Made by a program: the position numbers and the translations under genes
From: Eledone cirrhosa
Lineage: Eukaryota
NCBI GenBank assembly: GCA_964016885.1
Contig: OZ024740.1
Coordinates: forward strand, 42,036,001-42,100,000
Reading direction: 5' to 3'
DNA: 64,000 nucleotides
In this document: positions 3,782-47,902 of the stretch, in pieces
Numbering within the stretch: position 1 is the stretch's first letter
Layout of the letters: each line of letters opens with the position of its first letter
The notes under the pieces: model-generated
Seen by the model: the letters and a program-made list of their open reading frames with translations, nothing else
The model's database searches: none
What the model was told of the DNA's origin: nothing

Positions 3782-3877
3782 ACCCCCTGAGAAGTTCGGG
3801 TATTTATTTACCGGACTAAAAATTCTTATTTAGTCCAGAATTAGCCGTCGAAACGTTTTAAGCTCTGCCGTCGGGGT
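3782..3877 (+). ncRNA. Hammerhead-like motif with long stem II (degenerate copy, core CUGAGAA)
   Basis: ACCCC/GGGGT stem I, GAAA at 3850, GUC at 3870-3872; same family as 63051-63144. Confidence 0.55.
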
Positions 3878-4344: not shown

Positions 4345-4348
<4 letters not shown>

Positions 4349-5387
4349 GTACACAAGAGATGTAGCGGGATCTCAGGAAGCTTAATTAAGAATGTAGGAT
4401 TCACATGCAGCAGCTGTGCTGAAACAGCAAGCAAACAGCCACAGGAAACAAGTACCACCAATCTCTGGGAGGGCCCTGTAGAAACAGTAGACAGCTTCTG
4501 CTACCTAGGTGACCGAATTAGCAACGGAGGTGGGTGCTCAGAAAGTACAATAACTAGGGTAAGAACGGGATGGAAGAAGTTTAGGGAACTACTACCACTG
4601 CTAGCTGCAAAAGGCTTCTCCCTCAGAATGAAAGGCAGACTGTATGATGCGTGTATCCGAACAGCGATGTTGCATGGTAGTGAGACCTGGGCGCTGAAGG
4701 TGGAAGACTTACGTAGATTAGAGAGAAACGAAGCCTGCATGCTCCGATGGATGTGTAACAGTAATATACGTGAACGACAAAGCATAAAGGAATTGAGAGA
4801 GAGACTGAGCATAAGAGGAATCAAATGCTGCGTGCAGGAGAGGCGGTTACGCTGGTATGTACATGTGATGCGTATGAAGGATGACAGCTGCATAAAAAGG
4901 TGCAGAGCACTAGAAGTTGATGGAAACCGCGGAGTGGGGAGACCTAAGATGACTTGGGATGAGGTGATAAAAGCCGACCTTACCCAACTACACCTCTCAA
5001 AGACAATGACACACGACCGTGACTTCTGGCGTCACGCAGTAATACAGGGTACCCGACCTCCCATGGGTACATGCTGAAGCATATAAACAATATGCCCCCA
5101 CTCCCCCCACCGCATGGTGGTCGTGGAGGTGCCACGGCAAAAAAGCACCCAGCCCACACTGTAAAGTGGACGTGTAGGCGCCACGAAAAAGCACCCAGCA
5201 CTCACTGTAAATGAGGTTGGTGTTAGGAAGGGCATCCAGCTGTAGAAATCAAGCCAGATCAGTTCCTGTATGAGCAAGGCATGGTCAGCCGACCAGACAC
5301 TGCCCACAACAGGACAACCCGTCTAACCCATGCTAGCGTGGAAGAACGGACGTAAAACGGTGATGATGATGATGATGATGATGATGT
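4345..5387 (+). mobile_element. 5'-truncated RTE-clade LINE (ORF C-terminus to 5077, 3'UTR, (GAT)n tail)
   Basis: VDSFCYLGD...GWKKFRELLPLL...LHGSETW...RRLRWY.HV.R...RG.GRPKMTW; ends acgtaaaacgg(tga)n. Confidence 0.9.
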
Positions 5388-8893: not shown

Positions 8894-10758
8894 TTTCGGA
8901 ATAGAAGCAATTCCTTCCAGCAAGACCTGAAGAATAGAATTCGTTCTATTAAGGATTCTAATGCCGTGCACGTCCATTCCGACAAAACTGGCAACTTATA
9001 TCAAGTGGAGCGCAGTACTTACCATCAACTACTACATAATGCTGTAACTAAGGATTACCGTAAAACTAATTGGTGTGTCATCAATGAAATCAACGATGTT
9101 GGGTTTAAAATCACATCTGATCTCAACATCCTGGACCGGACCGAACCTCTGGACCCTATCTCTCCCCACTTTACCCTGAAGGATCACAAATCCAATTTTC
9201 CGAACAACCCCTCTATTCGGCTTATTAACCCTACGAAATCCGATTTAGGTAGACTTAGTAAAACGATTCTTGATAGAATTATACCTGAAATTAGAAGTTT
9301 GGCCCCTCTCGCACTGTGGAACAATTCTTTCGCGGTGATTGATTGGTTCAACGGCATATGTAACAAGGAACATTGCCGTTTTATCCAATTCGACATCAAC
9401 AATTACTACTCCTCCATCACTTTACCACTTCTCCTTAGAGCTATCAATTTCGCTAAAACACTCACAGTGGTAAAGGATTTCGAAGTTGATGTCATCCTTA
9501 ATGCCCGAAAGTCGGTGATTAATTTCGACGACTCTATTTGGATTAAAAAATCCAATAGTACCCCATTTGACGTAAGTATGGGCGCCAGTGATTCTGCGGA
9601 GGTTACTGATCTTATTGGCCTTTTCCTTCTTTTCTCTATCAAAGACGAATTCACCAACGCGGGCGGTGGTTTGTACCGTGACGATGGTTTTTTGACCATG
9701 ACTAAGTGCGGACCTCGTGCTTGCGACAGGTTCAGAAAAGAACTCACAGCCTTCTTTAAAGGCTTCAACCTCTCTATACAGGTTGAGGCCAATCTCTCGG
9801 TCGTTAATTACCTCGACGTTACCCTCAATTTATTGAATGGGTTGTATTACCCGTATAGAAAGCCGAATGATACGCTTAATTACATAAGTAAGCATTCCAA
9901 CCATCCTGCCAGCATAAACAAGAACCTGGTAAAAAACGTTTCGTTGAGGCTTTCTCGTCTTTCCACCAACAAGCGCATTTTCAACGATCATTCCACTTAT
10001 TACAATGAAGCTCTTGCTCGAAGTGGATTTGTCGATAAGGTAGCATATACAGAGTACGAAAATAGACCTAGAAGAAATAGATCCCGTCGCATTTGTTGGT
10101 TTAACCCACCCTATAATATGGAGGTGGCCACACCATTAGCTAAGATCTTTCTTTCCCTTATAACGAAGCATTTTCCCCCTACACATAAATATAGTAAAAT
10201 TTTTAATAGAAATACTATTAAAATTTCTTACTCTACGACTCCTAACCTTGCACATAACATCACAGCTTCAAATTTAGCTAAACTACCTAGCCGTAGGAAC
10301 ACGTGCAACCCTGTAGTTAGTACTAACTGTAATTGTAGGATTCGGGCTGATTGCCCCCTATCCGGGAAATGCCTCTCTAGTAACATTGTCTACAAATGTA
10401 AGGTTGTTACACCCACGTCCCGTAGGGCCTACATAGGGTTAACCGCCAATAGTTTCAAGCAGCGTCTTTACATGCATACCCATTCTTTTCGTTACCCTCT
10501 AAGAAGGAATATAACGTCACTTTCAGCTTATATCTGGAGTCTAAAAGACAACCACACCCAATATAAGTTACACTAGCTAGGGCTAGATCGTATAACGGAA
10601 ATGAAAGACCATGTGACCTCTGCGCCGCTGAGGCCCTGGAAATACTCTACGCCACAGACCACATCTTAAACAAAAAATCTGGGGCAATTTCGGCTTGTAA
10701 ACATAAATTGCACAAAACTTTCCTGTATTACAGCCCCACGTTATACCCTAACGGATAG
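8894..10758 (+). pseudogene. PLE reverse transcriptase + GIY-YIG endonuclease (one frameshift at ~10573)
   Basis: SDKTGN, TLKDHK.NF...[37 protein letters not shown]....CPL.G.C....IVY.C...YIGLT...FKQR..H; the shifted frame continues RPCDLC..E....ILNKKS..ISACKHK. Confidence 0.92.
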
Positions 10759-13412: not shown

Positions 13413-13418
13413 TATATT

Positions 13419-14089
<671 letters not shown>

Positions 14090-14267
14090 GTATATATATA
14101 TATGTATATATATATATATGTATATATATATGTATATATATGTAGGAGGTGAGTTTTATTGTAGTACAATAAAGCAATGCAGATATCGGATAAGAAGCAC
14201 TCTACAGTTTGTAGGACTGGAGTATACATAATATATAAGATCAAAAGATGGTTAAATGAGTTCCATG

Positions 14268-14338: not shown

Positions 14339-14846
14339 GCAGGACATGATATGAAGGTTAAAAACACAAGTAGTTTTAGATTGATGTGTGATATTGGCGA
14401 ACATTTTTTCAGGGGGGGGGGGGGAAAGGATGAAAAAGAGGAGGAGATGAGAGTAAAAAGTGGAGGGGGAGGAGTATAATGAGGAAGGATGAGATAGGAG
14501 GAGGCGTGGCTGATAGAGAGAGAGAGATAGCTTTTATAACTGAGAAAAATATATTGTTTTACATAGAGAGGTTGAAAAACCGTTGGAAGATAATGTATAA
14601 ATTAAAAGAATTTGAAAATTAACGAAGAGAAAAATAATGTAAAGTTAAGGTTATGTAAAGTTAAGGTTTGTATATTGAAGGGTTTAATAATATGTGCGAT
14701 GAAAAGAAATTGTTAATATGTATTAAGAATAATATTTAAGGGTTTAATAATATGTGCGATGGAAAGAAAATGTTAATATGTATTAAGAATAATTTTAGGG
14801 TTTAATAATATGTGCGATGGAAAGAAAATGTTTATATGTATTATTA

Positions 14847-15739
14847 AAAAAAAAAGACCTAGATACAAAAACATAATCTGGTATAATGCTCCTTTCTCCA
14901 TCTCTATTAATAATAATATTCCTAAATTATTCTTTAGTGCCTTAAATAAATGCTTCCCTCCCTCACATATCTATAGTAAAATATTTAACAAACACACTAT
15001 AAAATTTTCCTATTTGACATCCTCCAACATTTCCAACATTATCTCTAAACACAACAATAAAATACTAAATACTAAATCTCTTCCTTCCAACACTGAATAT
15101 CATAATAATAGTAATAGTACTCCCGACGTCATTGTAAACCCTAGGCTAATTTCTGCAAACCCAAATACAACGTCAAACACAACTTCGCTAAATGTTCTTA
15201 ATCCCATTCTAAATCAAGAAACTATTATTCCTATCGCAAATAACTTCTCCAATCCAATTCCTTCTATAGATAACACTGGGTCACTCGTTAATAATCTCTT
15301 TAATTGCAATTGCAATTGCCCTGCTAAAAATAAATGTCCTCTCAACAACCATTGTGTTGATAAAAACTTAATTTACGAATGTAAAGTTATAACTGACACC
15401 AATTCCTTCACATATTTTGGCTCCACTTCAACCTCCTTTAAAGCTCGTCTTTATAATCATCATTCGTCTTTTAAATATAAACTTAAAAGAACCAACACGG
15501 CTCTCTCAGAACTCATATGGTCCTTGAAAGACAAAAATATTAAATATAACATCTCTTGGAAGAAGGTTTCCTCTGTTTCCTCATACTTGAACAGTTCTCT
15601 ATCCAAGTCTTGCAATCTCTGTCTGAATGAAAAATTTACCATTATATCTAATTTAGATTCTATAATAAATATACGCACTGACTTGTTTTCTATCTGCTTG
15701 CATAAATTCCACAGAACTTTCCATAAAGTATACAGCTAA
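14847..15739 (+). pseudogene. PLE RT thumb/linker + GIY-YIG endonuclease (5'-truncated, open frame)
   Basis: IIWYNAPFS...FP..H.YSKIFN..TIK.SY; CNC...CPL...C...LIYEC...YFGST...FKARLYNH; CNLCLNEK. Confidence 0.88.
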
Positions 15740-21072: not shown

Positions 21073-24000
21073 TTATACTTCTCTTAGGTCAGTGTTGTTT
21101 GTTTGGGTGTTGTTGTTGTTCCACTCATTCTTTCTGTTTAGCTTTGGTCTTCTAATTTCTATTTCACTGGCCTCTCTGATTTGCCTATCTGCTGGGTCAT
21201 TCCTATGTTTAGATATTATTCTAATTTCTATGTTGTCTATGTTACCGTCATGTTGTTGTCTAGCATGTTCGTATAGTACTGACCCGTTTTTTCGTCCTTT
21301 TAGTTCCCCCCAGTGTTGGTCTATCCTTTCACCTATGCTACGAGCTGTCTCACCTATGTATGTTGTTGTCGTGTTTCTGCAAGTACCCTCTGTACATCTT
21401 ATGCTATAGACTACGTTTCTAGTTTTACAGTTTATCCGGGGGTTCACCTTACATATGATACATTTCCTATTGGTACAGTGGGTTTTTTTAAAAGGGTAGG
21501 TTTTGCTGATCAGGGATTTTATGGTGGTTCCTGGCTTTTCTACCACCTTTATTTTTAAGTGGGTCTTTCTCAGGGCCTTTCTACACTGGTTAGCTAATTT
21601 CCCTCCAGGGGTGGCGTCCACAAACATGACACTCTGATATCTCTGGTTGTCGTACCATGATGTGGCCTTCCCTATCTTATGTCTAGCCCTATCTAAGCTA
21701 TTCCATGATTTGCTCCTGTATAGTGGGCAAATTCCTTTCATGTCCAGTTCTATGAGGGTCTTATACTTTTCCATGGCTCCTTCGTATACTCTGACTCTGT
21801 CTCTTTGGTTGTAGCCAGAGAACTGCATGCGGTTGATGAAGTGTTGGATGTGTCCTTCCATTTCTGTTGGGTCGCACATGCTGGACACATTCTTCATCAC
21901 TCGTACCAAATCTGCGATCAGAATATTAAACTTAGCAGTACTGGACATTGCTGAGTTTTGAGTATCAGGTATTTGGAGGCCATGGGTTTAGCATAGTGTG
22001 AGTGGAGAATTTGGGCTCTCTCGTCTATAGTGTTAATCCAGAGTTCTGTGTCTAATACAGGTAGTCTATTGTTAGGGTGTTTGGAAGGGAAGTCTATAGT
22101 TACAGTTATACTCTGGTGTATGGAATTAGCTATCTGCTGGATGCTTTCCATCGTGCTACGTTCTAAATCAAACTTGTTAGTGCTCTCTAGTGGGGGTGTT
22201 CTTATAACTATATTGATATCGTCTACATAACGAGAGTACATGATGAGGTCTATGGAGCTTTCATTAAGGAGATCTTTAAGTCTCCTTTCCCACCATACCA
22301 TGAAAAGGTTGGCAACATCACCAGCTATGCTGACGCCGATGGCTGCTCCCTCATTTTGGGTGTAGATTTTCTCATTGAACTTAAATATGTGGCCCTTTAG
22401 GGTAGTTTTGATACTAGCCCCTATTGCATGTGCGACCATTTTTCTTACCTGATCAGTGTTTTGGGGGGTCCGTATAGCTTTGGTCCACCCAATCCACCTT
22501 CCTATGGGAGTCTTTTTAGCCATTGAGGTTATGGTGGGGGGTCTACCTCTTATAGGTCTACTAGGGCAGAAACATCTAAGGTCATGGCTGTCTAGGTAGT
22601 CAGTGTCGTAGGTAAGTCTAAGTAGGAGGCCCAGTTCGTCTGTGTCGACGTCGCAGAACTCCACCTCACTCTCAATGATCATCTCCACACATCTTTTCAC
22701 AGCAAAATCAATGTTAATGGATGGGTACAGTGACACCACATCCATGCTGCCTATTATGCAGTTGGATAGGCTCCTGTTTTTGTTGCACTCACTGATTCTG
22801 CTGAGGAGGTCCTCTGTACTTTCACATACATCTGGGGACATCTTGATTATGGGGCGTATAACCATTGAGAGGAAGTAGGAGATCCTGTAGTTGCTAGCTA
22901 TATTAGCTCCGCATACGGGTCTTGTTGGTGGTCCTGTTGTCGGGTCGTCGACTGTCTTGTGGTCTTTGCGGAGCCCATACAAGGGTGGTATGCCATTGTT
23001 AGACGCCTGGAAGTTGTTGGCAGTGCGTCTGCTTGGCTTTAGTCCACATCATCATGTGAGCGTTGAGGATTTTTTCTCTCCCATCGTGTGTTAGTTGTGC
23101 AACTTCGCTCGTGTTGGTGATGTGGGGTTGCATTGCCTCGATGTAGTTCGGCATGCTATCTATTGACATCCTACCAGACTTATCTGTGGGTAGACACACT
23201 ACCTCACCATCCCTTGTGCGCTGCTTGAGGCTAACCAAGCCTTCTACAGGTTTTATCCCAAGTTGTTGGGCCTCTGGTCTGCTCTGTCTCATAGTGTACC
23301 TGTCTACTACTTGTCTAATCTTATTTCTAGCTATGGTGAACTGTGCCTCCGTCTCGTCATCTATTTGCTGTGGTATGCAAACTCTTTTATTAAAGGGTAA
23401 CCTCGTAGGATAGATATTACCCATCTTATATGTTTTGTCAGCTGGGTTGAAAATAGTTTCTCTAAGGGGTTGTCGTTATTTCTATCGTCATAGTTGTGTG
23501 TGTTGCTATTATTGTTATCATGGTGGTTGTTGTTGTTTCTATCATTAGCATTAATATTATTATTGTTATGATTGCTAGATGTATTGTTGTTTACTTCACC
23601 GTTATTGTTGTTGTTGTTACTGCTATTTCTACCATTGTGGTTGTTACTATTATTATGTTTCTTGTTTTTGTTGATGTTGCTACATGTACTATTTCCATTA
23701 TTACCACTGTGGTTATTGTTGTTGTTGTTGTTCGTATTGTTACCGTTATTACTACTGTGGTCACTGTTGCTGTGTCTGTGGTTAACGTTTCTATTATTAT
23801 TATTATTGTGGTTGTTGTTGTTCTGTCTATCGCTAGTATTATTACCATTATCACTATTTCTCACTTTCCTGCCATTGTTATGGTTATGGCTGTTATTTCT
23901 ATACCCAGAGTTATTGTTTATATTACTACTACCGTTATTATTGTTGTTGTTGTTTACCTTTGCATTCCAACGTATTTTTGTGAAACACTTTTCCAGCTCC

Positions 24001-24430
24001 GTTTTGCATTCCATAGGGTTAATCTTTTTGTAGATGGCAAATTTTGGTGGTAACTTTAGGATTTGTTGTTCTTGTTCACTGATTAAAGTGTTCCCATAGA
24101 TATTTACTGTGTGGTCATTGGTAAATTCTTCCGGTAGTTTTACATCACTCATACGGATGTTGTCGATGTTATCTGGGTATTTTTGAGAATATTCGATTTT
24201 CCTTTCTTGTAGTTTTTTCTTATTCATCCATTCTAATTTCTTCTTGAAATGCCTACAGCATTCGTTTTGAGCATATTTCGTTTCGCGTCGGATGACGCTC
24301 ATGAAGTCATCTCTCTCGTTTGCTGTGATGAGATTTCGGATTTCCTTACCGTTGATGCGTTTTTGTCTGTAGAGTGCGTTGACTTTTGTGTATGTTGTTC
24401 TTTTCATATTAACTGTTATTGTGTGTTTTA
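21073..24430 (-). pseudogene. PLE RT + GIY-YIG polyprotein broken by three frameshifts, with an Asn-rich tract
   Basis: ILKLPPKFA, PTDKSGR, YGLRKDHK, TRPVCG, GSMDVVSLYPSI, Q.EG..IG, RYVDD, LPVLD, C..C...CKTRNVVY..C...YIGETARS..ER...H. Confidence 0.92.
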
Positions 24431-24974
24431 GCCGACAGCTCGTAGCATAGGTGAAAGGATAGACCAACACTGGGGGGAACTAAAAGGACGAAAAAACGGG
24501 TCAGTACTATACGAACATGCTAGACAACAACATGACGGTAACATAGACAACATAGAAATTAGAATAATATCTAAACATAGGAATGACCCAGCAGATAGGC
24601 AAATCAGAGAGGCCAGTGAAATAGAAATTAGAAGACCAAAGCTAAACAGAAAGAATGAGTGGAACAACAACAACACCCAAACAAACAACACTGACCTAAG
24701 AGAAGTATAAATAAATAAGTAAATTAAATTAAATAAAATAAGATAAATAAATACATACACAAGCACATAAACACACACTAGTCACCCAGCAGACACAACA
24801 CTATACACACTAGTCACACATCACACATAACACTATACACACACGCAAACGCATGCGCAAAGAAGACAAAATAAAATAAGATAAACAAACAAGCAAATAA
24901 ATAAATAAATATATAGACAGACTGAACAAAAAAATGGCGTAGACATACAACACAACAGGAGGAACAATGAATAT

Positions 24975-34308: not shown

Positions 34309-34310
34309 TA

Positions 34311-34342
<32 letters not shown>

Positions 34343-34424
34343 GTATTTGTCCCCTTCTTTTGTGCCCCTGTGGCTAATAAAGAAATATATCTATCTATCT
34401 ATCTATCTATCTATCTCTCTCTCT
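34309..34424 (+). repeat. (CTAT)n - 44 bp Tx1 3'-end stub (34342-34385) - (CTAT)n(CT)n
   Basis: Stub identical to 40222-40265. Confidence 0.85.
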
Positions 34425-34646
34425 ATAAGACGTGTGTAACTTCGCGGAGAAGTTTCCGTTAATTTATGTAAGAAAAAAACGTGAGTTTTCAATTAAATTT
34501 TATATTATTGTGTAACTTGGTCCCCCGTTTGGACCTTCAGGTGGTGGGTCAACTCATTTTCGCCCCTACAGGGGCGAAATATTCGTTTTAAAAATTTTTT
34601 CTCCATCGAAATTTGGAAAAAAAATATTATAAGTTTGATTACGTTA

Positions 34647-36560
34647 TGAACGCTGCGTTCAACGATAATGGTGGTGGAGAGTCGGTGAGACTACAGAGCT
34701 CGCAGTCAACATCGTCTTCTTCCCTTTCCTTCTCAATAGCTACTATAGAGATGGAAAGACGAAATGAAAATGTAAAAACAAATTCATGTCCAAACAACAC
34801 AAATGACACCAAACAGTTCAATGGCAACAAAAATAACAGCAACACCAATAATGATGATAAAAACAACAATGATAACAACAACAAAGAAAAAAATAAAGAC
34901 AACACCAATAACACCAGCATCAAAGACAACAACAACACCAACACCAACACCAAGGAAAATACGAATAATATCAACATCGGTGACAACAAGAATAACAACA
35001 ACAATAACAAGAATAATGACAACACCACCAACACGGATAATTCCACAAAGAAACCAAAATCTCCTTTGCACAGACAGTTCAGAAAAAGGAGGAACTGACA
35101 TATCTCGACATAACAAATGCCGAACAACTTTTAAAGAACGCTAGGAGATATGTCACTTTCGAAAAAAATGGTGCTTTCAGCATCAATTCTCCGGTAGAAA
35201 TTCGCAAGGAAACTGCTCTCAAAACGATAGTTTTTAGGACAGTTTCCAATTCTACCCGAAAACCAGTCCAATTGTCACAGAAAGAAATTGGATGGTTTTC
35301 AAAAATTCAATGAATGATATTGCATTCATTCAAAGAAGCAAACTTTTTGGGAGTATTTCGGTACTCATGAAGGATCAATTGACGGCCCAAAATTACTCTG
35401 TGTCGCCAATTGTATCCAACCTGTACACCTTTTTCCCTACATACATGGGAAAAAGGACACAAAAGATCAAAATCACGAGTGTCACACCAAAGGTAAACAT
35501 ATGGTGGATACTGTGCGGCTTCATCAATTTTGATGAAGACAGAATACTGTCAGTAGGAAAGACCCCCAGAGATGTATTCAATGGGACTAGCATTGAAGTT
35601 CTGGTGCAAATGAGCCCAGAGCGAATAGCTATGATCCCACAACGTGTACTCCTGGACGGACTCACCTACATAAACTTCATGTTACCATTGCTTTAGCAGG
35701 GGTCACCTGAGGGCTTCCTGTCCTAAATTAATGAGTAAAAAAAAGGCTCTTCTGCCGACACCCATCAAAACAACACAACCACCAACACCACCACAACAAC
35801 AACAACACCAACACACAAAAATAACCACAACAAACACAGTCGCACCCAACCCCACTCCACCTAAAACCACTGCAAAATCACAAACAGACACAACAGCTCC
35901 CCAAGACATGCCCCTCCCCAATCACACAGACTATACAACAGATGAGGCTATCTCGCCATCACCCAGTGAAGACGAGGGAGAACCCCATCGCTCGAAAAGA
36001 AAGAAAAGACATCACAAAAGCAAAAAACCAGCACTACCACAAACATACAACCACCAACACAAACAACAAAAACATCACAAACAAAACCCCCACCTCCTGA
36101 AAACAAAATACCTACAACAAAACGAAAGCACACACAAGAACTACAGACAAAAACAAACACAACACAAGAAAATTACACTTACACTTACATAAACACTGAA
36201 AACAAAACACTAATGGAGACCATCACGAACGACCCTTCGGTGAAAACCGAAGAGAAAACTTCGCCCACTCTATTAAAAATAACAAAAAACTGAACCTAAA
36301 ACTGATTAGGGTCCGTATACAAACTTATAGGTCCCTAAAAGAAACATTTGAGAAGGATGTGGGGAATTCCTGCGTGAAACCACTTAACCGCGTCCTTCTC
36401 AAATGTCTCCCCACCCCATACACCCCCATCCCACCAGACCCCACCACACCAAACACTCCGTCCCCACCCCGCCGGAAACCACCACCCATCCAGACAACCC
36501 CTCCAGCACCCCCATGGAAATCGTGCAGCCTGGTCCCCGGGAGACGAAGGGTGAGTGATC
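34647..36560 (+). pseudogene. Tx1 ORF1 (gag-like), frameshifted, boundaries approximate
   Basis: Asn-rich N-terminus; CCHC knuckle CYHCFSRGHLRASC at 35680-35721; Pro/Thr-rich tail. Confidence 0.7.
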
Positions 36561-36591
36561 TATTTTCCTCTTTTAACTTTTCAGCACCAAC

Positions 36592-39500
36592 ATGGCCAAT
36601 ATAAGAGTTGGATGTGTGAACGAATGCGGCCTGGGGATGCCCTGGAAACAGGGCAAACTCTTAAACGACCTCAGGTCGCACAGTATGGATGTGGTAGCCA
36701 TTTGCGAGTCCAGGATCCACAGCGAGCGACAGCTGGCCCCCATCTTCGATGACTTTGAGATCTACGCATCTCTCTGTCAACCGGGGGGTGGGGGCGGAGT
36801 TGCCGTTTTGCTGCGGAAACACCTGGGCCTCGTAACACAGACGGTACATCTGGACCCGGAGGGTCGACTGGTGGTCCTAGACGTTGACGGTAGTGAAGGT
36901 GGAGCCTTCAGGCTGGTGGCCGCATATGCCCCATCCGGGACACCGCGGCCAGACTTCTTCAAACGTCTAGAGACTTTTCTGGGAACGTCCCGCTCCTTGC
37001 TTTTAGTGGGGGACTGGAATGGAATCCTAGATGCACGTTGGGACTATGTTGGAGCATGTCCCGATAAAGGGGGGTGTAACAGCCTCAAATAGTTAATCGA
37101 CCGGTTTGACCTGCCCGATAGATATCGACTAGATTTTCAGACTGCGCCACCGTGGACGTGGAGTAATCGTAGTGGAACATCTAGATCGTACCTAGATAAG
37201 GTTCTAGTTAGAAATAAGGATAGGGACATGTTAAGCTGTCCACAAATGTTCATGGTTGCCTATTCAGATCACAAACTAGTGACCTGCATGGCCAACCTTG
37301 ATAGAACCCATAGACAAGGACCCGGCTACTGGAAGCTGAATTTGTCGTTACCAACAAGCAAAGCCTACAGTAGACGGATTAGCACTTTAGTTAAACAGCA
37401 CTTGACAGGGGCCATTGTCAACAACAGATGGTGGTACTCTCTCAAGAGGGCAGTTAGATTAGACTCGTTAGTTTTTAGTAAAGAATTAGCGTTAGATAGA
37501 AATAGAACCGAGAAGGAACTGGTAGATAAAGTAGAAGAGGCAATTAGAAGTGGCAACGTAGCCAGCGTGCTAGCAACGAGAACGGCCTTGGACCAGTTCT
37601 TCGACGCAAAGCACGAGGGCTGCGTTGTCAGAAGCAAAATAGGTGCTCTAGGTAACGAGGGAGCCAAAGCTGTTAGCTGGGCCCGGGTGACGGAAGCAAA
37701 AAGTGGCAATAAGTCCACGATTCGGTCTTTCAAGGACCAAGACGGACGCGTGATACGTAAGCCGAAGCAGATGTGTGCGGCCTTTCAGCGGCACTTTGCT
37801 CAGCTGTTCGGGCAGGACGCCGCGCCGGGAGGGGCTATGGATTTCGGTCCATACCTCGACGGCCTACCGCGACTCTCGGACAGCGAGGCAAAGTTCTGCG
37901 AAAAGCCGATTTCAGCCGCTGAGATAGGGGACGCGCTGAGTCAATGCGGCAAACTCAAATCTCCAGGTCTCGACGGTCTACCCTACGAATATTACGTAGC
38001 AATGCCGGATTGTTCTCCGGTCTCCTGGAAGCGGTCTACTGCAACTGGCAACAGAACGGGAGAATTCCCAGTTCTGTAACCGGGGGCGTGGTCACACTAA
38101 TCAGGAAGGACGAGAATAAGGGGGATGACATAGGCAACTTCCGGCCCATAACTCTGCTAAACACAGAGTTACAGATTTTGGCCAAGGTGTTGGCAAAGAG
38201 GCTGGTGCTTTTCGCCGAGAACCTGGTGGGAGAAGCGCAGACATGCGCGATCCCGACCAGGTCCATACACGACAACCTCCACCTCATGCGATACATCATA
38301 GAGAGGGTAGGGTGTAAACCCGGCTTCGGTGGGGCCCTGATCAACTTGGATCAGTCTAAGGCTTTCGATAGGGTTGACCATCGTTACCTGGATGCGGTGC
38401 TCGAGGCGGCAGGCTTCGGACCCGTGTTCAGGGGCTGGATTGCTGCAATGCACAACAGCAACATCTGCTCAAGGGTCAAGGTGAACGGTTACCTCTCGGA
38501 GCCGTTCCATATTACGCGATCCATTCGACAGGGATGCCCTCTCTCCTCCCTTCTGTACGTACTGACTCTCGAGCCACTACTGCGGAAGCTGGAGCTATTG
38601 CAGGGCATCCCTCTGGAACCGGGACTGCCGAAAGCGGCGTCGGCCTACGCCGACGACGTGACAGTAATGGTGTCGAGCGCCTCGCAAATCGAGGAAGTCG
38701 GCACCTTACTAAAGGAATACGAAAGTCTCACAGGAGCGAAGCTGAACCGGGACAAGTCCATCGGTTTGCAACTCGGATCGTGGAGAGGCAGACCGATGCC
38801 TTCCGATGGCGTCGTCGGACGCTGGACGGAAGGACCGGTAAAGCTGCTCGGGGTCTGGTTTGGTCCGGACCTCCAGGTGGAGAAGAACTGGAACGAAGTG
38901 ACGGCCAAGGTGTTTGCACTCACCCAGAAGTGGGCCGAGTGCAAACTATCCTTGAAAGGTCGAGCGGAGGTGGCGAACACTTTTATAGCGTCCGCCATCT
39001 ACTACCGCTTGACCGTCGTGCCTTGTCCAGCCAAAACGCTCGCCAAAATGGAGCGCGCCCTCTTCCGATTCCTTTGGAAGAGGCGGGCTCCTTTGGTAAG
39101 AAGATCCATCTGCTGCCAACACCCTTCTAACGGAGGGCTGGGGATGCCGTGGTTGACGATGCGCAAACACGCGCTCAGGCTGCGGCATCTCTACGTATTC
39201 CTCACCGGACAACCGGTGTGGGCCCCGTTCGTGAGGCGAGCCTTCCCACGACTCGTCTCGCTGACCGAGCTGCAGTCCTGGGTCAAGCAGAGACCGAGGA
39301 AAATGGGCGACTGGCACATCGAATGTGCTCAGGCGCTCACAGCCCTCTGGCAGGCGGACCCGGCGATCAGTGGAGACTCCACTTCGTCATTCTATAGAGG
39401 GTTGGTCCGCAGCAAGTGCGACGACGCGCTCGGTGAAACTCTAGGCGTGGAGGAAGATGAACTGGCCAGTCTGTTCGGTAGGACCTTCCGCCCGGGACCG

Positions 39501-40028
39501 ATGGACAACTTCCAAAAGTCCCTGGCCTGGCAGTGCTACCGAGGAGCTCTACCAGTTCGAGACAAGCTCTACAGACATGGGCGCCCGGGCAGGGACCCTG
39601 CAAAAAAGATCTGTCCGAGGTGCGTGCGAGACGAAGAAACCGTCGCGCACGCATTCATACACTGCCCGGGCGTCACTGACCTGTGGGGCTATGTGGAACG
39701 ACTATTGTCGCGGGTGGGACCAATCCAGTTGACCACCGAGTCCATTGTCATGATCAAACCGCCACCCTCCTTCAAAAACGAAGGAGAGGCGGTTTTCCTT
39801 TGTGTGATAGCTATGGCGAAAGAGGTTGTATGGTGGACAAGGTTGAAAGGGCTGAGGTCAGACACCTTTCTCTCCGGCCAACAACTGATTCTTTTTTTCA
39901 AATACCACTTTGGAAGAAGAATCAGGATGGAGAGAGAGGTGCTGTACCCCAGCAAGTTTTATGAAAGGTGGGTGAAAGTGGCGAGAATGGCCCGAGTGAA
40001 TGGGCCTTCTCTCTATATCAGCCTGTAG
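36592..40028 (+). pseudogene. Tx1 ORF2: APE endonuclease, reverse transcriptase, C-terminal zinc finger
   Basis: VNECGL, ICES, GDWN, YLD, SDH, GPGYWKLN, KSPGLDGL, FRPITLLN, DQSKAFDRVDH, RQGCPLS, AYADD, CPRC..EET..H...C; stop at 37090-37092 and frameshift ~38010. Confidence 0.93.
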
Positions 40029-40267
40029 GTTGAGGAAAAGGAGGAGGAGAGGAAAGGAGTACAAGCTCTTCGTACTCCTGGAGATGAGGGTTGCACATTT
40101 TTTTCGGGGGTCTGTGTTACCCATATAAACTGTCTCCCTCTATTGGGGAAAATCGACTAACTTTTAAATTCCATCTGTGATAACATTTTACACGTTTTTA
40201 TTGTATGTAAACTTCCCCCTTTGTATTTGTCCCCTTCTTTTGTGCCCCTGTGGCTAATAAAGAAATA

Positions 40268-40300
<33 letters not shown>

Positions 40301-40308
40301 CTCTCTCT

Positions 40309-43300
40309 ATAAGACGTGTGTAACTTCGCGGAGAAGTTTCCGTTAATTTATGTAAGAAAAAAACGCGAGTTTTCAATTAAATTTTATATTATTGTGTAAC
40401 TTGGTCCCCCGTTTGGACCTTCAGGTGGTGGGTCAACTCATTTTCGCCCCTACAGGGGCGAAATATTCGTTTTAAAAATTTTTTCTCCATCGAAATTTGG
40501 AAAAAAAATATTATAAGTTTGATTACGTTATGAACGCTGCGTTCAACGATAATGGTGGTGGAGAGTCGGTGAGACTACAGAGCTCGCAGTCAACATCGTC
40601 TTCTTCCCTTTCCTTCTCAATAGCTACTATAGAGATGGAAAGACGAAATGAAAATGTAAAAACAAATTCATGTCCAAACAACACAAATGACACCAAACAG
40701 TTCAATGGCAACAAAAATAACAGCAACACCAATAATGATGATAAAAACAACAATGATAACAACAACAAAGAAAAAAATAAAGACAACACCAATAACACCA
40801 GCATCAAAGACAACAACAACACCAACACCAACACCAAGGAAAATACGAATAATATCAACATCGGTGACAACAAGAATAACAACAACAATAACAAGAATAA
40901 TGACAACACCACCAACACGGATAATTCCACAAAGAAACCAAAATCTCCTTTGCACAGACAGTTCAGAAAAAGGAGGAACTGACATATCTCGACATAACAA
41001 ATGCCGAACAACTTTTAAAGAACGCTAGGAGATATGTCACTTTCGAAAAAAATGGTGCTTTCAGCATCAATTCTCCGGTAGAAATTCGCAAGGAAACTGC
41101 TCTCAAAACGATAGTTTTTAGGACAGTTTCCAATTCTACCCGAAAACCAGTCCAATTGTCACAGAAAGAAATTGGATGGTTTTCAAAAATTCAATGAATG
41201 ATATTGCATTCATTCAAAGAAGCAAACTTTTTGGGAGTATTTCGGTACTCATGAAGGATCAATTGACGGCCCAAAATTACTCTGTGTCGCCAATTGTATC
41301 CAACCTGTACACCTTTTTCCCTACATACATGGGAAAAAGGACACAAAAGATCAAAATCACGAGTGTCACACCAAAGGTAAACATATGGTGGATACTGTGC
41401 GGCTTCATCAATTTTGATGAAGACAGAATACTGTCAGTAGGAAAGACCCCCAGAGATGTATTCAATGGGACTAGCATTGAAGTTCTGGTGCAAATGAGCC
41501 CAGAGCGAATAGCTATGATCCCACAACGTGTACTCCTGGACGGACTCACCTACATAAACTTCATGTTACCATTGCTTTAGCAGGGGTCACCTGAGGGCTT
41601 CCTGTCCTAAATTAATGAGTAAAAAAAAGGCTCTTCTGCCGACACCCATCAAAACAACACAACCACCAACACCACCACAACAACAACAACACCAACACAC
41701 AAAAATAACCACAACAAACACAGTCGCACCCAACCCCACTCCACCTAAAACCACTGCAAAATCACAAACAGACACAACAGCTCCCCAAGACATGCCCCTC
41801 CCCAATCACACAGACTATACAACAGATGAGGCTATCTCGCCATCACCCAGTGAAGACGAGGGAGAACCCCATCGCTCGAAAAGAAAGAAAAGACATCACA
41901 AAAGCAAAAAACCAGCACTACCACAAACATACAACCACCAACACAAACAACAAAAACATCACAAACAAAACCCCCACCTCCTGAAAACAAAATACCTACA
42001 ACAAAACGAAAGCACACACAAGAACTACAGACAAAAACAAACACAACACAAGAAAATTACACTTACACTTACATAAACACTGAAAACAAAACACTAATGG
42101 AGACCATCACGAACGACCCTTCGGTGAAAACCGAAGAGAAAACTTCGCCCACTCTATTAAAAATAACAAAAAACTGAACCTAAAACTGATTAGGGTCCGT
42201 ATACAAACTTATAGGTCCCTAAAAGAAACATTTGAGAAGGATGTGGGGAATTCCTGCGTGAAACCACTTAACCGCGTCCTTCTCAAATGTCTCCCCACCC
42301 CATACACCCCCATCCCACCAGACCCCACCACACCAAACACTCCGTCCCCACCCCGCCGGAAACCACCACCCATCCAGACAACCCCTCCAGCACCCCCATG
42401 GAAATCGTGCAGCCTGGTCCCCGGGAGACGAAGGGTGAGTGATCTATTTTCCTCTTTTAACTTTTCAGCACCAACATGGCCAATATAAGAGTTGGATGTG
42501 TGAACGAATGCGGCCTGGGGATGCCCTGGAAACAGGGCAAACTCTTAAACGACCTCAGGTCGCACAGTATGGATGTGGTAGCCATTTGCGAGTCCAGGAT
42601 CCACAGCGAGCGACAGCTGGCCCCCATCTTCGATGACTTTGAGATCTACGCATCTCTCTGTCAACCGGGGGGTGGGGGCGGAGTTGCCGTTTTGCTGCGG
42701 AAACACCTGGGCCTCGTAACACAGACGGTACATCTGGACCCGGAGGGTCGACTGGTGGTCCTAGACGTTGACGGTAGTGAAGGTGGAGCCTTCAGGCTGG
42801 TGGCCGCATATGCCCCATCCGGGACACCGCGGCCAGACTTCTTCAAACGTCTAGAGACTTTTCTGGGAACGTCCCGCTCCTTGCTTTTAGTGGGGGACTG
42901 GAATGGAATCCTAGATGCACGTTGGGACTATGTTGGAGCATGTCCCGATAAAGGGGGGTGTAACAGCCTCAAATAGTTAATCGACCGGTTTGACCTGCCC
43001 GATAGATATCGACTAGATTTTCAGACTGCGCCACCGTGGACGTGGAGTAATCGTAGTGGAACATCTAGATCGTACCTAGATAAGGTTCTAGTTAGAAATA
43101 AGGATAGGGACATGTTAAGCTGTCCACAAATGTTCATGGTTGCCTATTCAGATCACAAACTAGTGACCTGCATGGCCAACCTTGATAGAACCCATAGACA
43201 AGGACCCGGCTACTGGAAGCTGAATTTGTCGTTACCAACAAGCAAAGCCTACAGTAGACGGATTAGCACTTTAGTTAAACAGCACTTGACAGGGGCCATT

Positions 43301-46148
43301 GTCAACAACAGATGGTGGTACTCTCTCAAGAGGGCAGTTAGATTAGACTCGTTAGTTTTTAGTAAAGAATTAGCGTTAGATAGAAATAGAACCGAGAAGG
43401 AACTGGTAGATAAAGTAGAAGAGGCAATTAGAAGTGGCAACGTAGCCAGCGTGCTAGCAACGAGAACGGCCTTGGACCAGTTCTTCGACGCAAAGCACGA
43501 GGGCTGCGTTGTCAGAAGCAAAATAGGTGCTCTAGGTAACGAGGGAGCCAAAGCTGTTAGCTGGGCCCGGGTGACGGAAGCAAAAAGTGGCAATAAGTCC
43601 ACGATTCGGTCTTTCAAGGACCAAGACGGACGCGTGATACGTAAGCCGAAGCAGATGTGTGCGGCCTTTCAGCGGCACTTTGCTCAGCTGTTCGGGCAGG
43701 ACGCCGCGCCGGGAGGGGCTATGGATTTCGGTCCATACCTCGACGGCCTACCGCGACTCTCGGACAGCGAGGCAAAGTTCTGCGAAAAGCCGATTTCAGC
43801 CGCTGAGATAGGGGACGCGCTGAGTCAATGCGGCAAACTCAAATCTCCAGGTCTCGACGGTCTACCCTACGAATATTACGTAGCAATGCCGGATTGTTCT
43901 CCGGTCTCCTGGAAGCGGTCTACTGCAACTGGCAACAGAACGGGAGAATTCCCAGTTCTGTAACCGGGGGCGTGGTCACACTAATCAGGAAGGACGAGAA
44001 TAAGGGGGATGACATAGGCAACTTCCGGCCCATAACTCTGCTAAACACAGAGTTACAGATTTTGGCCAAGGTGTTGGCAAAGAGGCTGGTGCTTTTCGCC
44101 GAGAACCTGGTGGGAGAAGCGCAAACATGCGCAATCCCGACCAGGTACATACACGGCAACCTCCACCTCATGCGATACATCATAGACAGGGTAGGGTGTA
44201 AACCCGGCTTCGGTGAGGCCCTGATCAACTTGGATCAGTCTAAGGCTTTCGATAGGGTTGACCATCGTTACCTGGATGCGATGCTCGAGGCGGCAGGCTT
44301 CGGACCCGTGTTCAGGGGCTAGATTGCTGCAATGCACAACAGCAACATCTGCTCAAGGGTCAAGGTAAACGGCTACTTCTCGGAGCCGTTCCATATTACG
44401 CGATCCATTCGACAGGGATGCCCTCTCTCCTCCCTTCTGTACGTACTGACTCTCGAGCCACTACTGCGGAAGTTGGAGCTATTGCAGGGCATCCCTCTGG
44501 AACCGAGACTGCGGAAAGCGGCGTCGGCCTACGCCGACGACGTGACAGTAATGGTGTCGAGCGCCTCGCAAATCGAGGAAGTCGGCACCTTACTGAAGGA
44601 ATACGAAAGTTTCACAGGAGCGAAGCTGAACCGGGACAAGTCCATCGGTTTGCAACTCGGATCGTGGAGAGGCAAACCGATGCCTTGCGATGGCGTCGTC
44701 GGACGCTGGACGGAAGGACCGGTAATGCTGCTCGGGGTCTGGTTTGGTCCGGACCTCCAGGTGGAAAAGAACTGGAACGAAGTGACGGCCAAGGTGTTTG
44801 CACTCACCCAGAAGTGGGCCGAGTGCAAACTATCCTTGAAAGGTCGAGCGGAGGTGGCGAACACTTTTATAGCGTCCGCCATCTACTACCGCTTGACCGT
44901 CGTGCCATGTCCAGCCAAAACGCTCGCCAAAATGGAGCGCGCGCTCTTCCAATTCCTTTGGAAGAGGCGGGCTCCTTTGGTGAGAAGATCCATCTGCTGC
45001 CAACACCCTTCTAACGGAGGGCTGGGGATGCCGTGGTTGACGATGCGCAAACACGCGCTCAGGCTGCGGCATCTCTACGTATTCCTTACCGGACAACCGG
45101 TGTGGGCCCCGTTCGTGAGGCGAGCCTTCCCACGACTCGTCTCGCTGACTGAGCTGCAGTCTTGGGTCAAGCAAAGACCGAGGAAAATGGGCGACTGGCA
45201 CATAGAATGTGCTCAGGCGCTCACAGCCCTCTGGCAGGCGGATCCGGCGATCAGTGGAGACTCCACTTCGTCATTCTATAGAGGGTTGATCCGCAGCAAG
45301 TGCGACGACGCGCTCGGTGAAACTCTAGGCATAGAGGAAGATGAACTGGCCAGTCTGTTCGGTAGGACCTTCCGCCCGGGACCGATGGACAACTTCCAAA
45401 AGTCCCTGGCCTGGCAGTGCTACTGAGGAGCTCTACCAGTTCGAGACAAGCTCTACAGACATGGGCGCCCGGGCAGGGACCCTGCAAAAAAGATCTGTCC
45501 GAGGTGCGTGCGAGACGAAGAAACCGTCGCGCACGCATTCATACACTGCCCGGGCGTCACTGACCTGTGGGGCTATGTAGAACGACTATTGTCGCGGGTG
45601 GGACCAATCCGGTTGACCACCGAGTCCATTGTCATGATCAAACCGCCATCTCCTTCAAAAACGAAGGAGAGGCGGTTTTCCTTTGTGTGATAGCTATGGC
45701 GAAAGAGGTTGTATGGTGGACAAGGTTGAAAGGGTTGAAGTCAGACACCTTTCTCTCCGGCCAACAACTGATTCTTTTTTTCAAATACCACTTTGGAAGA
45801 AGAATCAGGATGGAGAGAGAGGTGCTGTACCCCAGCAAGTTTTATGAAAGGTGGGTGAAAGTCGCCAGAATGGCCCGAGTGAATGGGCCTTCTCTCTATA
45901 TCAGCCTGTAGGTTGAGGAAAAGGAGGAGGAGAGGAAAGGAGTACAAACTCTTCGTACTCCTGGAGATGAGGGTTGCACATTTATTCGGGGGTATTTGTT
46001 ACCCATATAAACTGTCTTCCTCTATTGGGGAAAATCGACTAACTTTTTAAATTGCATTTGTGATAACATTTTACACGTTTTTATCGTATGTAAACTTCCC
46101 CCTTTGTATTTGTCCTCTTCTTTTGTGCCCCTGTGGCTAATAAAGAAA
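40309..46148 (+). mobile_element. Tx1-clade non-LTR retrotransposon, copy 2 (offset 5884 bp from copy 1)
   Basis: Tandem copy; 5' ~3.8 kb nearly identical to copy 1, 3' ~2 kb diverged. Confidence 0.92.
42476..45911 (+). pseudogene. Tx1 ORF2 copy 2
   Basis: Same lesions as copy 1, plus stops at 44320 and 45424 and a frameshift ~45648. Confidence 0.92.
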
Positions 46149-46176
46149 CATATCTAACTATCTGTCTATCTATCTT

Positions 46177-47829
46177 GTCGGCCTACGCCGATGACGTAAC
46201 AGTTATGGTGTCGACGGCCTCGGAAATCGGGGCGATCGGCACCTTACTGGAGGAGTACGAAAGGTTGACAGGGGCTAAGCTGAACCGGGACAAGTCGATC
46301 GGTCTGCAACTCGGCACGTGGAGGGGCAGATCGATGCCCTCCAATGGCGTCGTCGGGCGCTGGACGGAGGGCCCGGTGAAGTTGCTCGGTGTCTGGTTCG
46401 GACCAGACCTCCAGGTGGAGAAGAACTGGGGTGAGGTAACGAACAGGGTGTTTGCACTGACCCAGAAGTGGGCCGAGTGCAAACAGTCCCTGAAAGGTCG
46501 GGCGGAGGTGGCGAACACTTATATAGCGTCCGTCATCTACTACCGCCTGACGGTTGTGCCTTGCCCAAGGGAAACGCTCGCCAAAATGGAGCGCGCACTC
46601 TTCCAATTCCTTTGAAAGAAGCGGGCTCCTATGGTGAGGAGATCCATCTGCTGTCAACACCCTTCGAAAGGAGGGCTGGGGATGCCGTGGCTAATGATGC
46701 GTAAACACGCATTAAGGCTACGGCACCTCCAGGTATTCCTCACCGGTCAACCGGTGTGGGCCCCGTTTGTGAGGCGAGCCTTTCCCAGACTCGTCTCACT
46801 CACCGAGCTGCAATCCTGGGTCAAGCAAAGACCGAGAAAACTGGGCGCCTGGCACACCGAGTGTGCCCAGGCGCTCACGGCTCTCTGGCAGGCGGACCCG
46901 GCTGTCAGTGGAGAATCCACCTCGTCATTCTATAGAGGGCTGGTGGTTAGCAGGTGCGACGACGCCCTCGGAGAAGCCCTAGGCATGGAGGAAGACGAAC
47001 TGGCCAACCTGTTCGGTAGGACATTCAGCCCGGGATACATGGATAACTTCTAGAGGTCCCTGGCCTGGCAGTGCTACCGAGGGGCTCTGCCCGTTCGAGA
47101 AAGGCTCTACAGACACGGGCGCCCGGGTAGGGACCCCTCGAAATAAATCTGTCCCAGATGCGTGTGCGACGAGGAAACCGATGCACACGCATTGGTACAC
47201 TGCTCGGGCATTGCCGATCTGTGGGGCTATGTCGAACAACTGCTGTCAAGGGTGGGACCGATCCGGTTGACCACCGAGTCTATTGTAACGATCAAGCCGC
47301 CTCCCCTCTTCAAAAAAGAAGGAGAGGCGGTGTTTCTGTGCGTAATAGCCATGGCGAAAGAGGTTGTATGGTGGACGCGTCTGAAAGGACTGAGGTCAGA
47401 CACCTTTCTCTCTGGCCAACAACTGGTCTGTTTCTTCCGATATCATTTCGGAAGAAGGATCAGGATGGAGAGAGAGGCGCTGCACCCCAGCCGTTTCTAT
47501 GAAAGATGGGTGAAAGTGGCGAGAATCGCCCGTGTGAATGGGCCTTCACTCTACAACAGACTATAGGTGAGGAAGATGAAAGACCAAGGGAGCACCCCCT
47601 CTCTGCGCTCCTGAGGAGAAGTGTTGCACACTTTTTTTCGGGGGTGTGTGCGACCCCCAAGGCGCCTCCTCCCTATTGAGGAATTTGTTATAAAATTTAT
47701 TTTGTTACATTTTATTTTATTTTTATATATTGTTACTGCTTCCTCCTTATTGAGGACGCCTTGTTATGTAAACTCCCCCCATTGTACTTGTCCCACTTTT
47801 TGATGCCCTGGTGGCAAATAAAAAGAAAA
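46177..47829 (+). mobile_element. 5'-truncated Tx1 element of a diverged subfamily (copy 3)
   Basis: Starts at SAYADD directly after copy 2's (CTAT)n; many synonymous differences, different 3'UTR, ends aataaaaagaaaat(tatc)n. Confidence 0.9.
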
Positions 47830-47902
47830 TTATCTATCTATCTATCTATCTCTCTCTCACACACTACATACATACATAGACACACACATATATCTATATA
47901 AA

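What the first reader, a model, noticed from the sequence alone, without database searches (positions are those of the whole stretch)
34309..47850. Tx1-clade LINE array in which every junction is (CTAT)n: candidate GATA/TATC-microsatellite-specific family
Seen: (CTAT)8 - 44 bp stub - (CTAT)n - copy 1 - (CTAT)n - copy 2 - (CTAT)n - diverged 5'-truncated copy 3 - (TATC)n, all in the same orientation. Copy 3 is a different subfamily, so at least two independent insertions chose this repeat. Established: the Tx1 clade includes sequence-specific families, such as Kibi and Koshi on TC/TTC repeats. Inference: the APE endonuclease targets (CTAT)n, and each insertion regenerates the target, producing arrays. 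I do not know of a described CTAT-specific Tx1 family but cannot exclude one.
Basis: partly seen in the sequence, partly recalled or inferred. Interest (0 to 1): 0.7.

Follow-up and report, generated by a model that had tools for sequence, protein, structure and literature searches.

The report
LINEs stacking inside GATA microsatellites
This is a chain of jumping-gene copies (LINEs) from a young, abundant family whose copies sit in one orientation inside TATC/GATA repeats across the genome, likely because their own enzyme cuts that repeat; repeat-seeking LINEs are known, but I found no report of this target, and the first copy here is an old/young hybrid rather than a separate full insertion.

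Summary
Observation confirmed. The (CTAT)n repeat is a target, not only a tail. Among 34 5'-truncated copies of the young family elsewhere in the genome, 28 abut at least 8 bp of CTAT, all in one orientation. Only 0.12% of background positions do, and 0 of 17 junctions of a control RTE LINE. Target-site duplications are 10-21 bp, and 32 of 39 copies have a lineage neighbour. Intact copies encode a zinc-knuckle ORF1 and an APE-RT ORF2 (1145 aa). Tx1-clade placement is probable, not proven.

The first 3.8 kb of copy 1 duplicates the broken copy 2 (1 difference), and its last 2 kb equals the young family. A second hybrid of this kind lies elsewhere (L026). Both likely arise when new cDNA switches onto the neighbouring old copy.

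A sister lineage (RT 78% identical) sits in (ATT)n instead. Eight paper searches found no GATA-targeting Tx1; Repbase and Dfam could not be searched. The scan already noted this lineage at least eight times on other DNA of this genome; my look-up found no note on the hybrids. Verdict: a new target variant of the Kibi/Koshi kind.

The parts
34311..34342 (+). (CTAT)8, left target tract
34343..34387 (+). Stub: 3'-terminal ~45 bp of the young family (either an extremely 5'-truncated insertion or the edge of the duplicated unit)
   Evidence: matches the end of copy 1 (48 of 49 bp from 34339) and carries the young-type end rather than copy 2's
34388..34415 (+). (TATC)7 junction tract
34416..38215 (+). 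Copy 1, old-type 5' part: (CT)n head, 5' UTR, broken ORF1 (34649-36558), first part of ORF2 from ATG 36592 with a stop at 37090-37092 and a frameshift near 38009; a local duplicate of copy 2's 5' part
   Evidence: 1 difference from copy 2 in 3.8 kb; about 150 substitutions against intact natural copy L046; 100% matches only to the two window copies among 40 scored; lesions; Exo_endo_phos E 3e-8
38216..38239 (+). Switch interval between old-type and young-type sequence in copy 1
   Evidence: last old-type difference at copy-1 position 3800, first young-type allele at 3825
38240..40267 (+). Copy 1, young-type 3' part: RT, zinc-binding C-terminus (ORF2 stop 40028), 3' UTR with AATAAA, no poly(A)
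   Evidence: 1 difference from L046; RVT_1 E 1e-26 and zf-RVT; 40 genomic matches 100% identical over its last 568 bp
40268..40299 (+). (TATC)8 junction tract
40300..46150 (+). Copy 2: older full-length element, both ORFs broken (same 5' lesions as copy 1, plus stops ending frames at 44322 and 45426 and a frameshift near 45648)
46151..46175 (+). Degenerate (TATC)6 junction tract (older junction)
   Evidence: sequence
46176..47830 (+). Copy 3: 5'-truncated copy of a different subfamily (RT C-terminal half to 3' end)
   Evidence: 83-84% identical to copies 1/2; its own family is 95-97% identical, 2509 candidates
47831..47850 (+). (TATC)5, right target tract, followed by (TC)n

Best explanation
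This is a head-to-tail array of an L1/Tx1-group LINE lineage whose copies sit in one orientation inside (TATC)n microsatellites, likely because the element's APE endonuclease nicks the (GATA)n strand and primes reverse transcription there. Shown: the flanks, the fixed orientation, 10-21 bp target-site duplications, excess 5' microhomology with the repeat, intact APE-RT copies, and arrays genome-wide. Inferred steps: (1) APE nicks the bottom strand; (2) the RNA's short 3' end (about UAUCU, no poly(A)) pairs with the freed strand; (3) the top strand is cut 10-21 nt downstream and its CTAT end anneals to the cDNA; (4) each insertion leaves repeat on both sides, which is hit again by the same or sister subfamilies. 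In this array copy 3 and copy 2 are older insertions. A young element then likely inserted just upstream of copy 2, and after about 2 kb its cDNA likely switched onto the homologous part of copy 2, duplicating copy 2's first 3.8 kb and making hybrid copy 1. The array therefore holds at least three, probably four, insertion events.
For: Young family, 39 copies chosen by 3' identity alone: 28 of 34 truncated copies abut 8 bp or more of CTAT (26 by script, L004 and L035 by eye); all 5 full-length copies follow (CTAT)n; 38 of 39 3' flanks begin TATCT; 0 of 39 show the reverse repeat on either side. Background is 0.12%. RTE control: 0 of 17 junctions. Copy-3 family: 9 of 17. Duplications containing non-repeat bases, read by eye: L029 11, L040 21, L065 12, L079 10, L091 15 bp. 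Microhomology averages 1.56 nt against 0.60 expected (25 junctions; 0 of 20,000 simulations). At off-target sites the tail is short (L013, L039, L044, L091), so long tracts come from the target. 32 of 39 copies have a lineage neighbour. Intact ORF1 638 aa and ORF2 1145 aa with APE, RT and zf-RVT. Hybrid; second case L026, whose first 422 bp are identical to its downstream neighbour. Contigs of another organism (run X5, another study) join the end of the TATC tract back to internal positions: 9 of the 12 rows shown.
Against: No nicking assay, so the APE role is inferred. 4 of 34 young truncated copies lack upstream CTAT (L013 in (TA)n, L039 in (CA)n, L042, L044), and L042 has a long 3' tract regardless. 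8 of 17 copy-3-family junctions lack 8 perfect bp. The one randomly met full-ORF2 copy (L091) sits at a site without a tract. The sample is the top 40 of 715 candidates, all on two chromosomes, and L020/L021 are one insertion duplicated (27 of 33 without it). The nick position cannot be read inside perfect repeats. The stub and the hybrid also fit unequal crossover.
Confidence: 0.75

Rival explanations
1. Targeting comes mainly from RNA-DNA pairing: a non-specific or absent nick is used wherever the RNA's TATC tail can anneal, and the APE domain has little sequence preference.
For: The 3' end carries TATCT even at off-target sites (L039, L044). Full-length heads begin in (CTAT)n(CT)n, suggesting read-through RNA. 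The ATT sister lineage has a matching ATT tail.
Against: The retained tail is only about 3-5 nt at off-target sites. The fixed 10-21 bp duplications imply programmed staggered cuts. The catalytic APE motifs are intact. Published work attributes target choice mainly to the endonuclease (PMC4494074, PMC3812793, passages).
Confidence: 0.15
2. CTAT is merely an element-encoded tail; copies insert at random, and arrays arise by passive accumulation or recombination.
For: Local duplications do occur (L004, L008, L020/L021). 4 of 34 copies lack upstream CTAT.
Against: 28 of 34 truncated copies have CTAT upstream against 0.12% background, often flanked by unique DNA. Arrays mix subfamilies 70-100% identical with different truncation points. 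5 of 6 random genomic tracts are not next to an element.
Confidence: 0.03
3. For copy 1 only: the hybrid arose after insertion, by unequal crossover or gene conversion between a young copy and copy 2, not during reverse transcription.
For: Homologous tandem copies invite unequal exchange, and other tandem duplications exist (L004, L008). One substitution and a different tract length separate the duplicated halves.
Against: Simple unequal crossover should leave a young copy of at least 2 kb to the left, but only a 45-bp stub is there. L026 shows the same polarity (old 5' part, young 3' part, old neighbour downstream) with nothing to its left.
Confidence: 0.3
4. For copy 1 only: the duplication is an assembly artefact joining two haplotypes.
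For: The 3.8 kb halves are nearly identical.
Against: The switch is clean within 24 bp, and a second locus (L026) has the same structure.
Confidence: 0.1

Closest known systems
Kibi (TC)n, Koshi (TTC)n and crocodilian Tx1 families in (TTCC)n/(TTTC)n (PMC4494074: passages and section 15; PMC3812793: passages)
   Same: APE-type LINE of the L1/Tx1 group inserted specifically in a microsatellite. It passes the paper's own criterion of more than 20% of flanks.
   Different: The unit is (TATC)n, which is in neither paper's list. The host is a different animal, probably an octopod (my inference and earlier scan notes, not tested). Many subfamilies 70-100% identical share the target and stack. Closeness to Kibi/Koshi in a tree was not tested because no labelled sequence was available.
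Fish elements BAC82621.1 (Danio) and BAD04856.1 (Takifugu), probably Keno (label inferred from neighbouring accessions in PMC4746887 and PMC4889948 passages, plus recall)
   Same: ORF2 length (1145 vs 1148/1154 aa) and domain order. They fall in the same 25-row group of the RT tree (UFBoot 90/SH 91).
   Different: RT is only 34-36% identical and APE 24%. Keno targets U2 snRNA genes.
Waldo (ACAY)n, Mino (AC)n and Dong (TAA)n (PMC3812793, passages)
   Same: Microsatellite-targeting non-LTR elements.
   Different: Different repeat units; that they belong to other clades is recalled.
Chimeric L1 insertions that duplicate nearby DNA by a synthesis-dependent-strand-annealing-like switch (bioRxiv 10.1101/2024.08.27.596794, passages; Gilbert et al. 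2002/2005, recalled, not read)
   Same: Nascent cDNA pairing with nearby homologous DNA, producing a hybrid and a duplication.
   Different: Templates there are typically under 250 bp; here they are 422 bp and 3.8 kb, and targeting routinely places new copies beside homologous old ones.
L1-Tx1 families of Octopus vulgaris (PMC13282606, passages: 13 recently active families, 421 insertions)
   Same: Recently active Tx1-class LINEs in a cephalopod.
   Different: The main text has no occurrence of 'GATA' or 'target site'. Identity with these families was not tested, and supplements were not read.

Membership tests
APE-type non-LTR retrotransposon, L1 group | ORF2 with N-terminal APE, RT and C-terminal zinc-binding region | tested here: met
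   Pfam on intact natural copies; best PDB match is human L1 ORF2p, E 6.7e-52, ahead of R2 at 1.7e-22
APE-type non-LTR retrotransposon, L1 group | TPRT hallmarks: 5' truncation, fixed 3' end, short target-site duplication | tested here: met
   34 of 39 copies truncated; duplications of 10-21 bp at 5 informative loci
Tx1 clade | RT groups with known Tx1 elements rather than with L1 proper | tested here: inconclusive
   Groups with fish BAC82621.1/BAD04856.1 in a 25-row group at UFBoot 90/SH 91, with plant L1 and fish P0067 outside; an exclusive clade with them is not rejected, p-AU 0.52. No labelled Tx1L, Kibi, Koshi or mammalian L1 was in the tree.
Tx1 clade | ORF1 with a CCHC zinc knuckle rather than the vertebrate-L1 type (criterion recalled) | tested here: met
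   CX2CX4HX4C visible in both ORF1s; zf-CCHC only E 0.04-0.24, below Pfam's cut-off; no other family matched
Microsatellite-specific Tx1 families (Kibi/Koshi kind) | More than 20% of flanks are one repeat type (criterion in PMC4494074) | tested here: met
   28 of 34 (young family) and 9 of 17 (copy-3 family) 5' junctions
Kibi or Koshi families themselves | Target (TC)n or (TTC)n | tested here: not met
   Junctions are TATC; short (CT)n occurs only in full-length heads and some flanks
Microsatellite-specific Tx1 families (Kibi/Koshi kind) | The endonuclease cleaves the target repeat | not testable with these tools
   needs a nicking assay
A family already in Repbase or Dfam | Sequence match to a deposited consensus with an annotated target | not testable with these tools
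   neither library is held

The most novel reading that the evidence does not exclude
One recent radiation of Tx1-group LINEs has split the genome's microsatellites among sister lineages ((TATC)n versus (ATT)n, APE domains 60-64% identical) through a few endonuclease changes. Because each lineage lands beside its own older copies, insertion routinely triggers cDNA switching that duplicates and recombines neighbours, so the arrays both seed fresh GATA tracts and shuffle subfamilies.
Probability: 0.35. Interest if true: 0.7.

Novelty: new variant of a known kind. Interest (0 to 1): 0.5.

Why it matters
The review PMC3812793 states that how APE-type elements target microsatellites is not well understood. 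Here there are intact, very recently mobile copies with a strict target and orientation, and a close sister lineage sitting in a different repeat. That is a natural pair for mapping which endonuclease residues or RNA ends set the target. The lineage is also abundant: 6 of 40 evenly spaced 10-kb stretches hold a piece of it or of its sisters. Many GATA 'markers' in this animal are therefore element junctions. The hybrids suggest that site-specific stacking promotes exchange between subfamilies.

Tried and rejected
- CTAT as a tail only: rejected.
- Copies 1 and 2 as members of a defective subfamily moved in trans: rejected; only the two window copies match the broken 5' half at 100%, the other 38 scored at 98%.
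- Check of the hybrid junction in contigs of four runs: no contig covered 38208-38215; a hole proves nothing, so no verdict.
- No RNA holder listed.
- Raw reads of run X21: none laid.
- Related loci: none in viral contigs. The 71 metagenome loci were distant (mostly 23-34% identity), and I did not analyse their flanks.
- Close protein relatives (P0001 70%, P0002-P0015 about 40%) carry no names, and their flanks could not be fetched.
- A third homologue search to label the 1250-aa group gave no useful names.
- The protein atlas gave no result.
- Automated duplication search was uninformative inside perfect repeats, so lengths were read by eye at five loci.
- Kojima and Fujiwara 2004 and a Gilbert et al. 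paper are not held. Supplements of PMC4494074 could not be read; its Fig. 3 target list, which I did not see, could contain a TATC family.
- My notebook says '14 of 14' full-length ATT copies and '14 organisms'; the calls give 15 of 15, and 14 runs from 11 organisms.
Full report
OBSERVATION. The layout is as described: (CTAT)8, a 45-bp stub equal to the young family's 3' end, (TATC)7, copy 1 (34416-40267), (TATC)8, copy 2 (40300-46150), a degenerate tract, the 5'-truncated copy 3 (46176-47830; 83-84% identical to copies 1/2) and (TATC)5. The window is full of (AT)n, yet its only four perfect tracts of 3 or more CTAT units are these junctions. The window lies in a 3.0-Gb animal genome. An octopod host is my inference and that of earlier scan notes; it was not tested.

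THE ELEMENT. The window copies are broken: ORF1 has frameshifts, and ORF2 has a stop at 37090 and a frameshift near 38009. Intact natural copies exist elsewhere (L032, L045, L046), with ORF1 of 638 aa carrying one CCHC knuckle and ORF2 of 1145 aa carrying APE, RT and zf-RVT. The best solved relative is human L1 ORF2p (E 6.7e-52). The family is very young: the last 568 bp of copy 1 gave 715 candidates, the 40 scored gave 40 full-length matches at 100%, and full-length copies differ from each other at about 10-17 positions. In a 34-row RT tree (22 of the 56 rows left out, including four of the six long branches) the lineage joins unnamed relatives. It falls in a 25-row group with two fish elements, BAC82621.1 and BAD04856.1 (UFBoot 90/SH 91). 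That these two are Keno is inferred from neighbouring accession numbers and recall. Tx1 membership is therefore probable but not proven.

TARGET TEST. I took the 39 non-window copies, selected only by 3' identity with a query that stopped before the tail, and mapped their 5' junctions. Five are full length, and all follow (CTAT)n. Of the 34 truncated copies, 28 abut 8 bp or more of CTAT (26 by script, 2 by eye). One more (L040) has the tract just upstream, at the start of its duplication; one (L003) is a composite; four lack it. 38 of 39 3' flanks begin TATCT, and none of 39 shows the reverse repeat. Controls: 0.12% of positions in 400 kb of evenly spaced genome, and 0 of 17 junctions of a young RTE-like family (12 of its 29 mapped copies had no junction inside the locus). 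The older copy-3 family gives 9 of 17 (13 of 30 had no junction in the locus), with several more degenerate. CTAT tracts exist independently of the element: 5 of 6 random tracts are not beside one. Still, 32 of 39 young copies have a lineage neighbour, from subfamilies 70-100% identical. Caveats: the sample is the top-scoring copies on two chromosomes, and L020/L021 are one event. L091, met at random, sits at a site without a tract.

MECHANISM. Shown: target-site duplications of 10-21 bp at five loci with non-repeat bases (read by eye). Also shown: 5' microhomology with the repeat, mean 1.56 nt against 0.60 expected (25 junctions; 0 of 20,000 simulations), and short tails at off-target sites. 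Inferred from established TPRT biology and the passages of PMC4494074 and PMC3812793: APE nicks the (GATA)n strand, the RNA's short TATCT end pairs with the primer, and a staggered top-strand cut leaves repeat on both sides as new targets. How much specificity comes from APE and how much from RNA pairing is untested.

CORRECTION: COPY 1 IS A HYBRID. Copies 1 and 2 differ once in 3.8 kb and 55 times in the last 2.03 kb. Against intact L046, copy 1 carries copy 2's differences up to window 38215 and then only one more. The broken 5' half matches at 100% only in the two window copies among 40 scored, so it was duplicated locally. L026 shows the same structure: 422 bp identical to its downstream older neighbour, then young sequence. 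The likely route is that cDNA of a new insertion switched onto the homologous neighbour, a process described for L1 (bioRxiv 10.1101/2024.08.27.596794, passages; Gilbert et al., recalled). Unequal crossover (0.3) and misassembly (0.1) remain open.

SISTER LINEAGE AND OTHER ORGANISMS. A lineage met in the random sample is sister to the CTAT group (UFBoot 98/SH 96; RT 78%; APE 60-64%). It ends in (ATT)n (the query included part of the tail). All 15 copies with an intact 5' end follow (ATT)n, but none of 5 truncated focal copies does, so ATT targeting is likely but less cleanly shown. Contigs from another organism and study join the TATC tract back into internal positions of the element (9 of the 12 rows shown, 188 not shown), suggesting the same arrays there.

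WHAT IS KNOWN. Described microsatellite targets are (TC)n, (TTC)n, (TTCC)n and (TTTC)n for Tx1, and ACAY, AC and TAA for other elements. Eight full-text searches turned up no GATA/TATC-targeting family. Passages of two cephalopod repeat papers mention L1-Tx1 without targets. I read passages only, plus section 15 of PMC4494074, and also passages of PMC2684134, which added nothing. Repbase, Dfam, Kojima and Fujiwara 2004 and the supplements and figure of PMC4494074 were not seen and could hold such a family. The scan's own notes list at least eight earlier findings of this lineage in this genome, including the ATT sister and further targets that I did not test. A word look-up for the hybrids returned none. 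These notes are not independent support; my reading was set before I saw them.

VERDICT. A real and well-supported (TATC)n-specific LINE lineage: a new target variant of a known kind. Interest 0.5; most novel reading 0.35 probable, worth 0.7 if true.

Noticed in passing
L116:9160-9700 (-), L222-L271: Sister lineage (RT 78%, APE 60-64% identical) with an (ATT)n tail; the query included part of the tail. 15 of 15 copies with an intact 5' end follow (ATT)n, but 0 of 5 truncated focal copies do, although several truncated neighbours do. No (CTAT)3 in 20 loci.
   Followed up: partly
L026:297-2068: Second old/young hybrid: the first 422 bp are identical to the downstream older copy and start at the same truncation point.
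   Followed up: yes
L003:808-854: Young copy joined to 47 bp of an older subfamily, a possible hybrid with deletion.
   Followed up: no
L004, L008, L020/L021: Tandem or nearby duplications of whole truncated copies or of two-copy units.
   Followed up: no
runs X4, X5, X7: 14 runs from 11 coded organisms hold at least 0.23 of the element's sampled words. Organism C shows very high depth and tail-to-truncated-copy joints; organism B holds pieces with 0-1 differences over 100-190 bp. Close relatives or horizontal transfer, not resolved.
   Followed up: partly
window 4346-5386 (+): 5'-truncated young RTE-like LINE (copies 99% identical, 1363 candidates) with a (TGA)n tail; several 5' junctions lie in (TA)n. 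Used as the control; the RTE label is recalled, as Pfam gave no hit.
   Followed up: partly
window about 8980-10576 (+), 13418-14155 (-), 14777-15739 (+), 21073-24479 (-): Pieces that look like Penelope-type retroelements (label recalled; RVT_1 E 3e-5 for 21918-23045).
   Followed up: no
L032, L033, L034, L045, L046, L022 5' ends: Full-length heads vary in (CT)n/CTAT content just before the fixed start, as expected if transcription begins in the upstream repeat.
   Followed up: no
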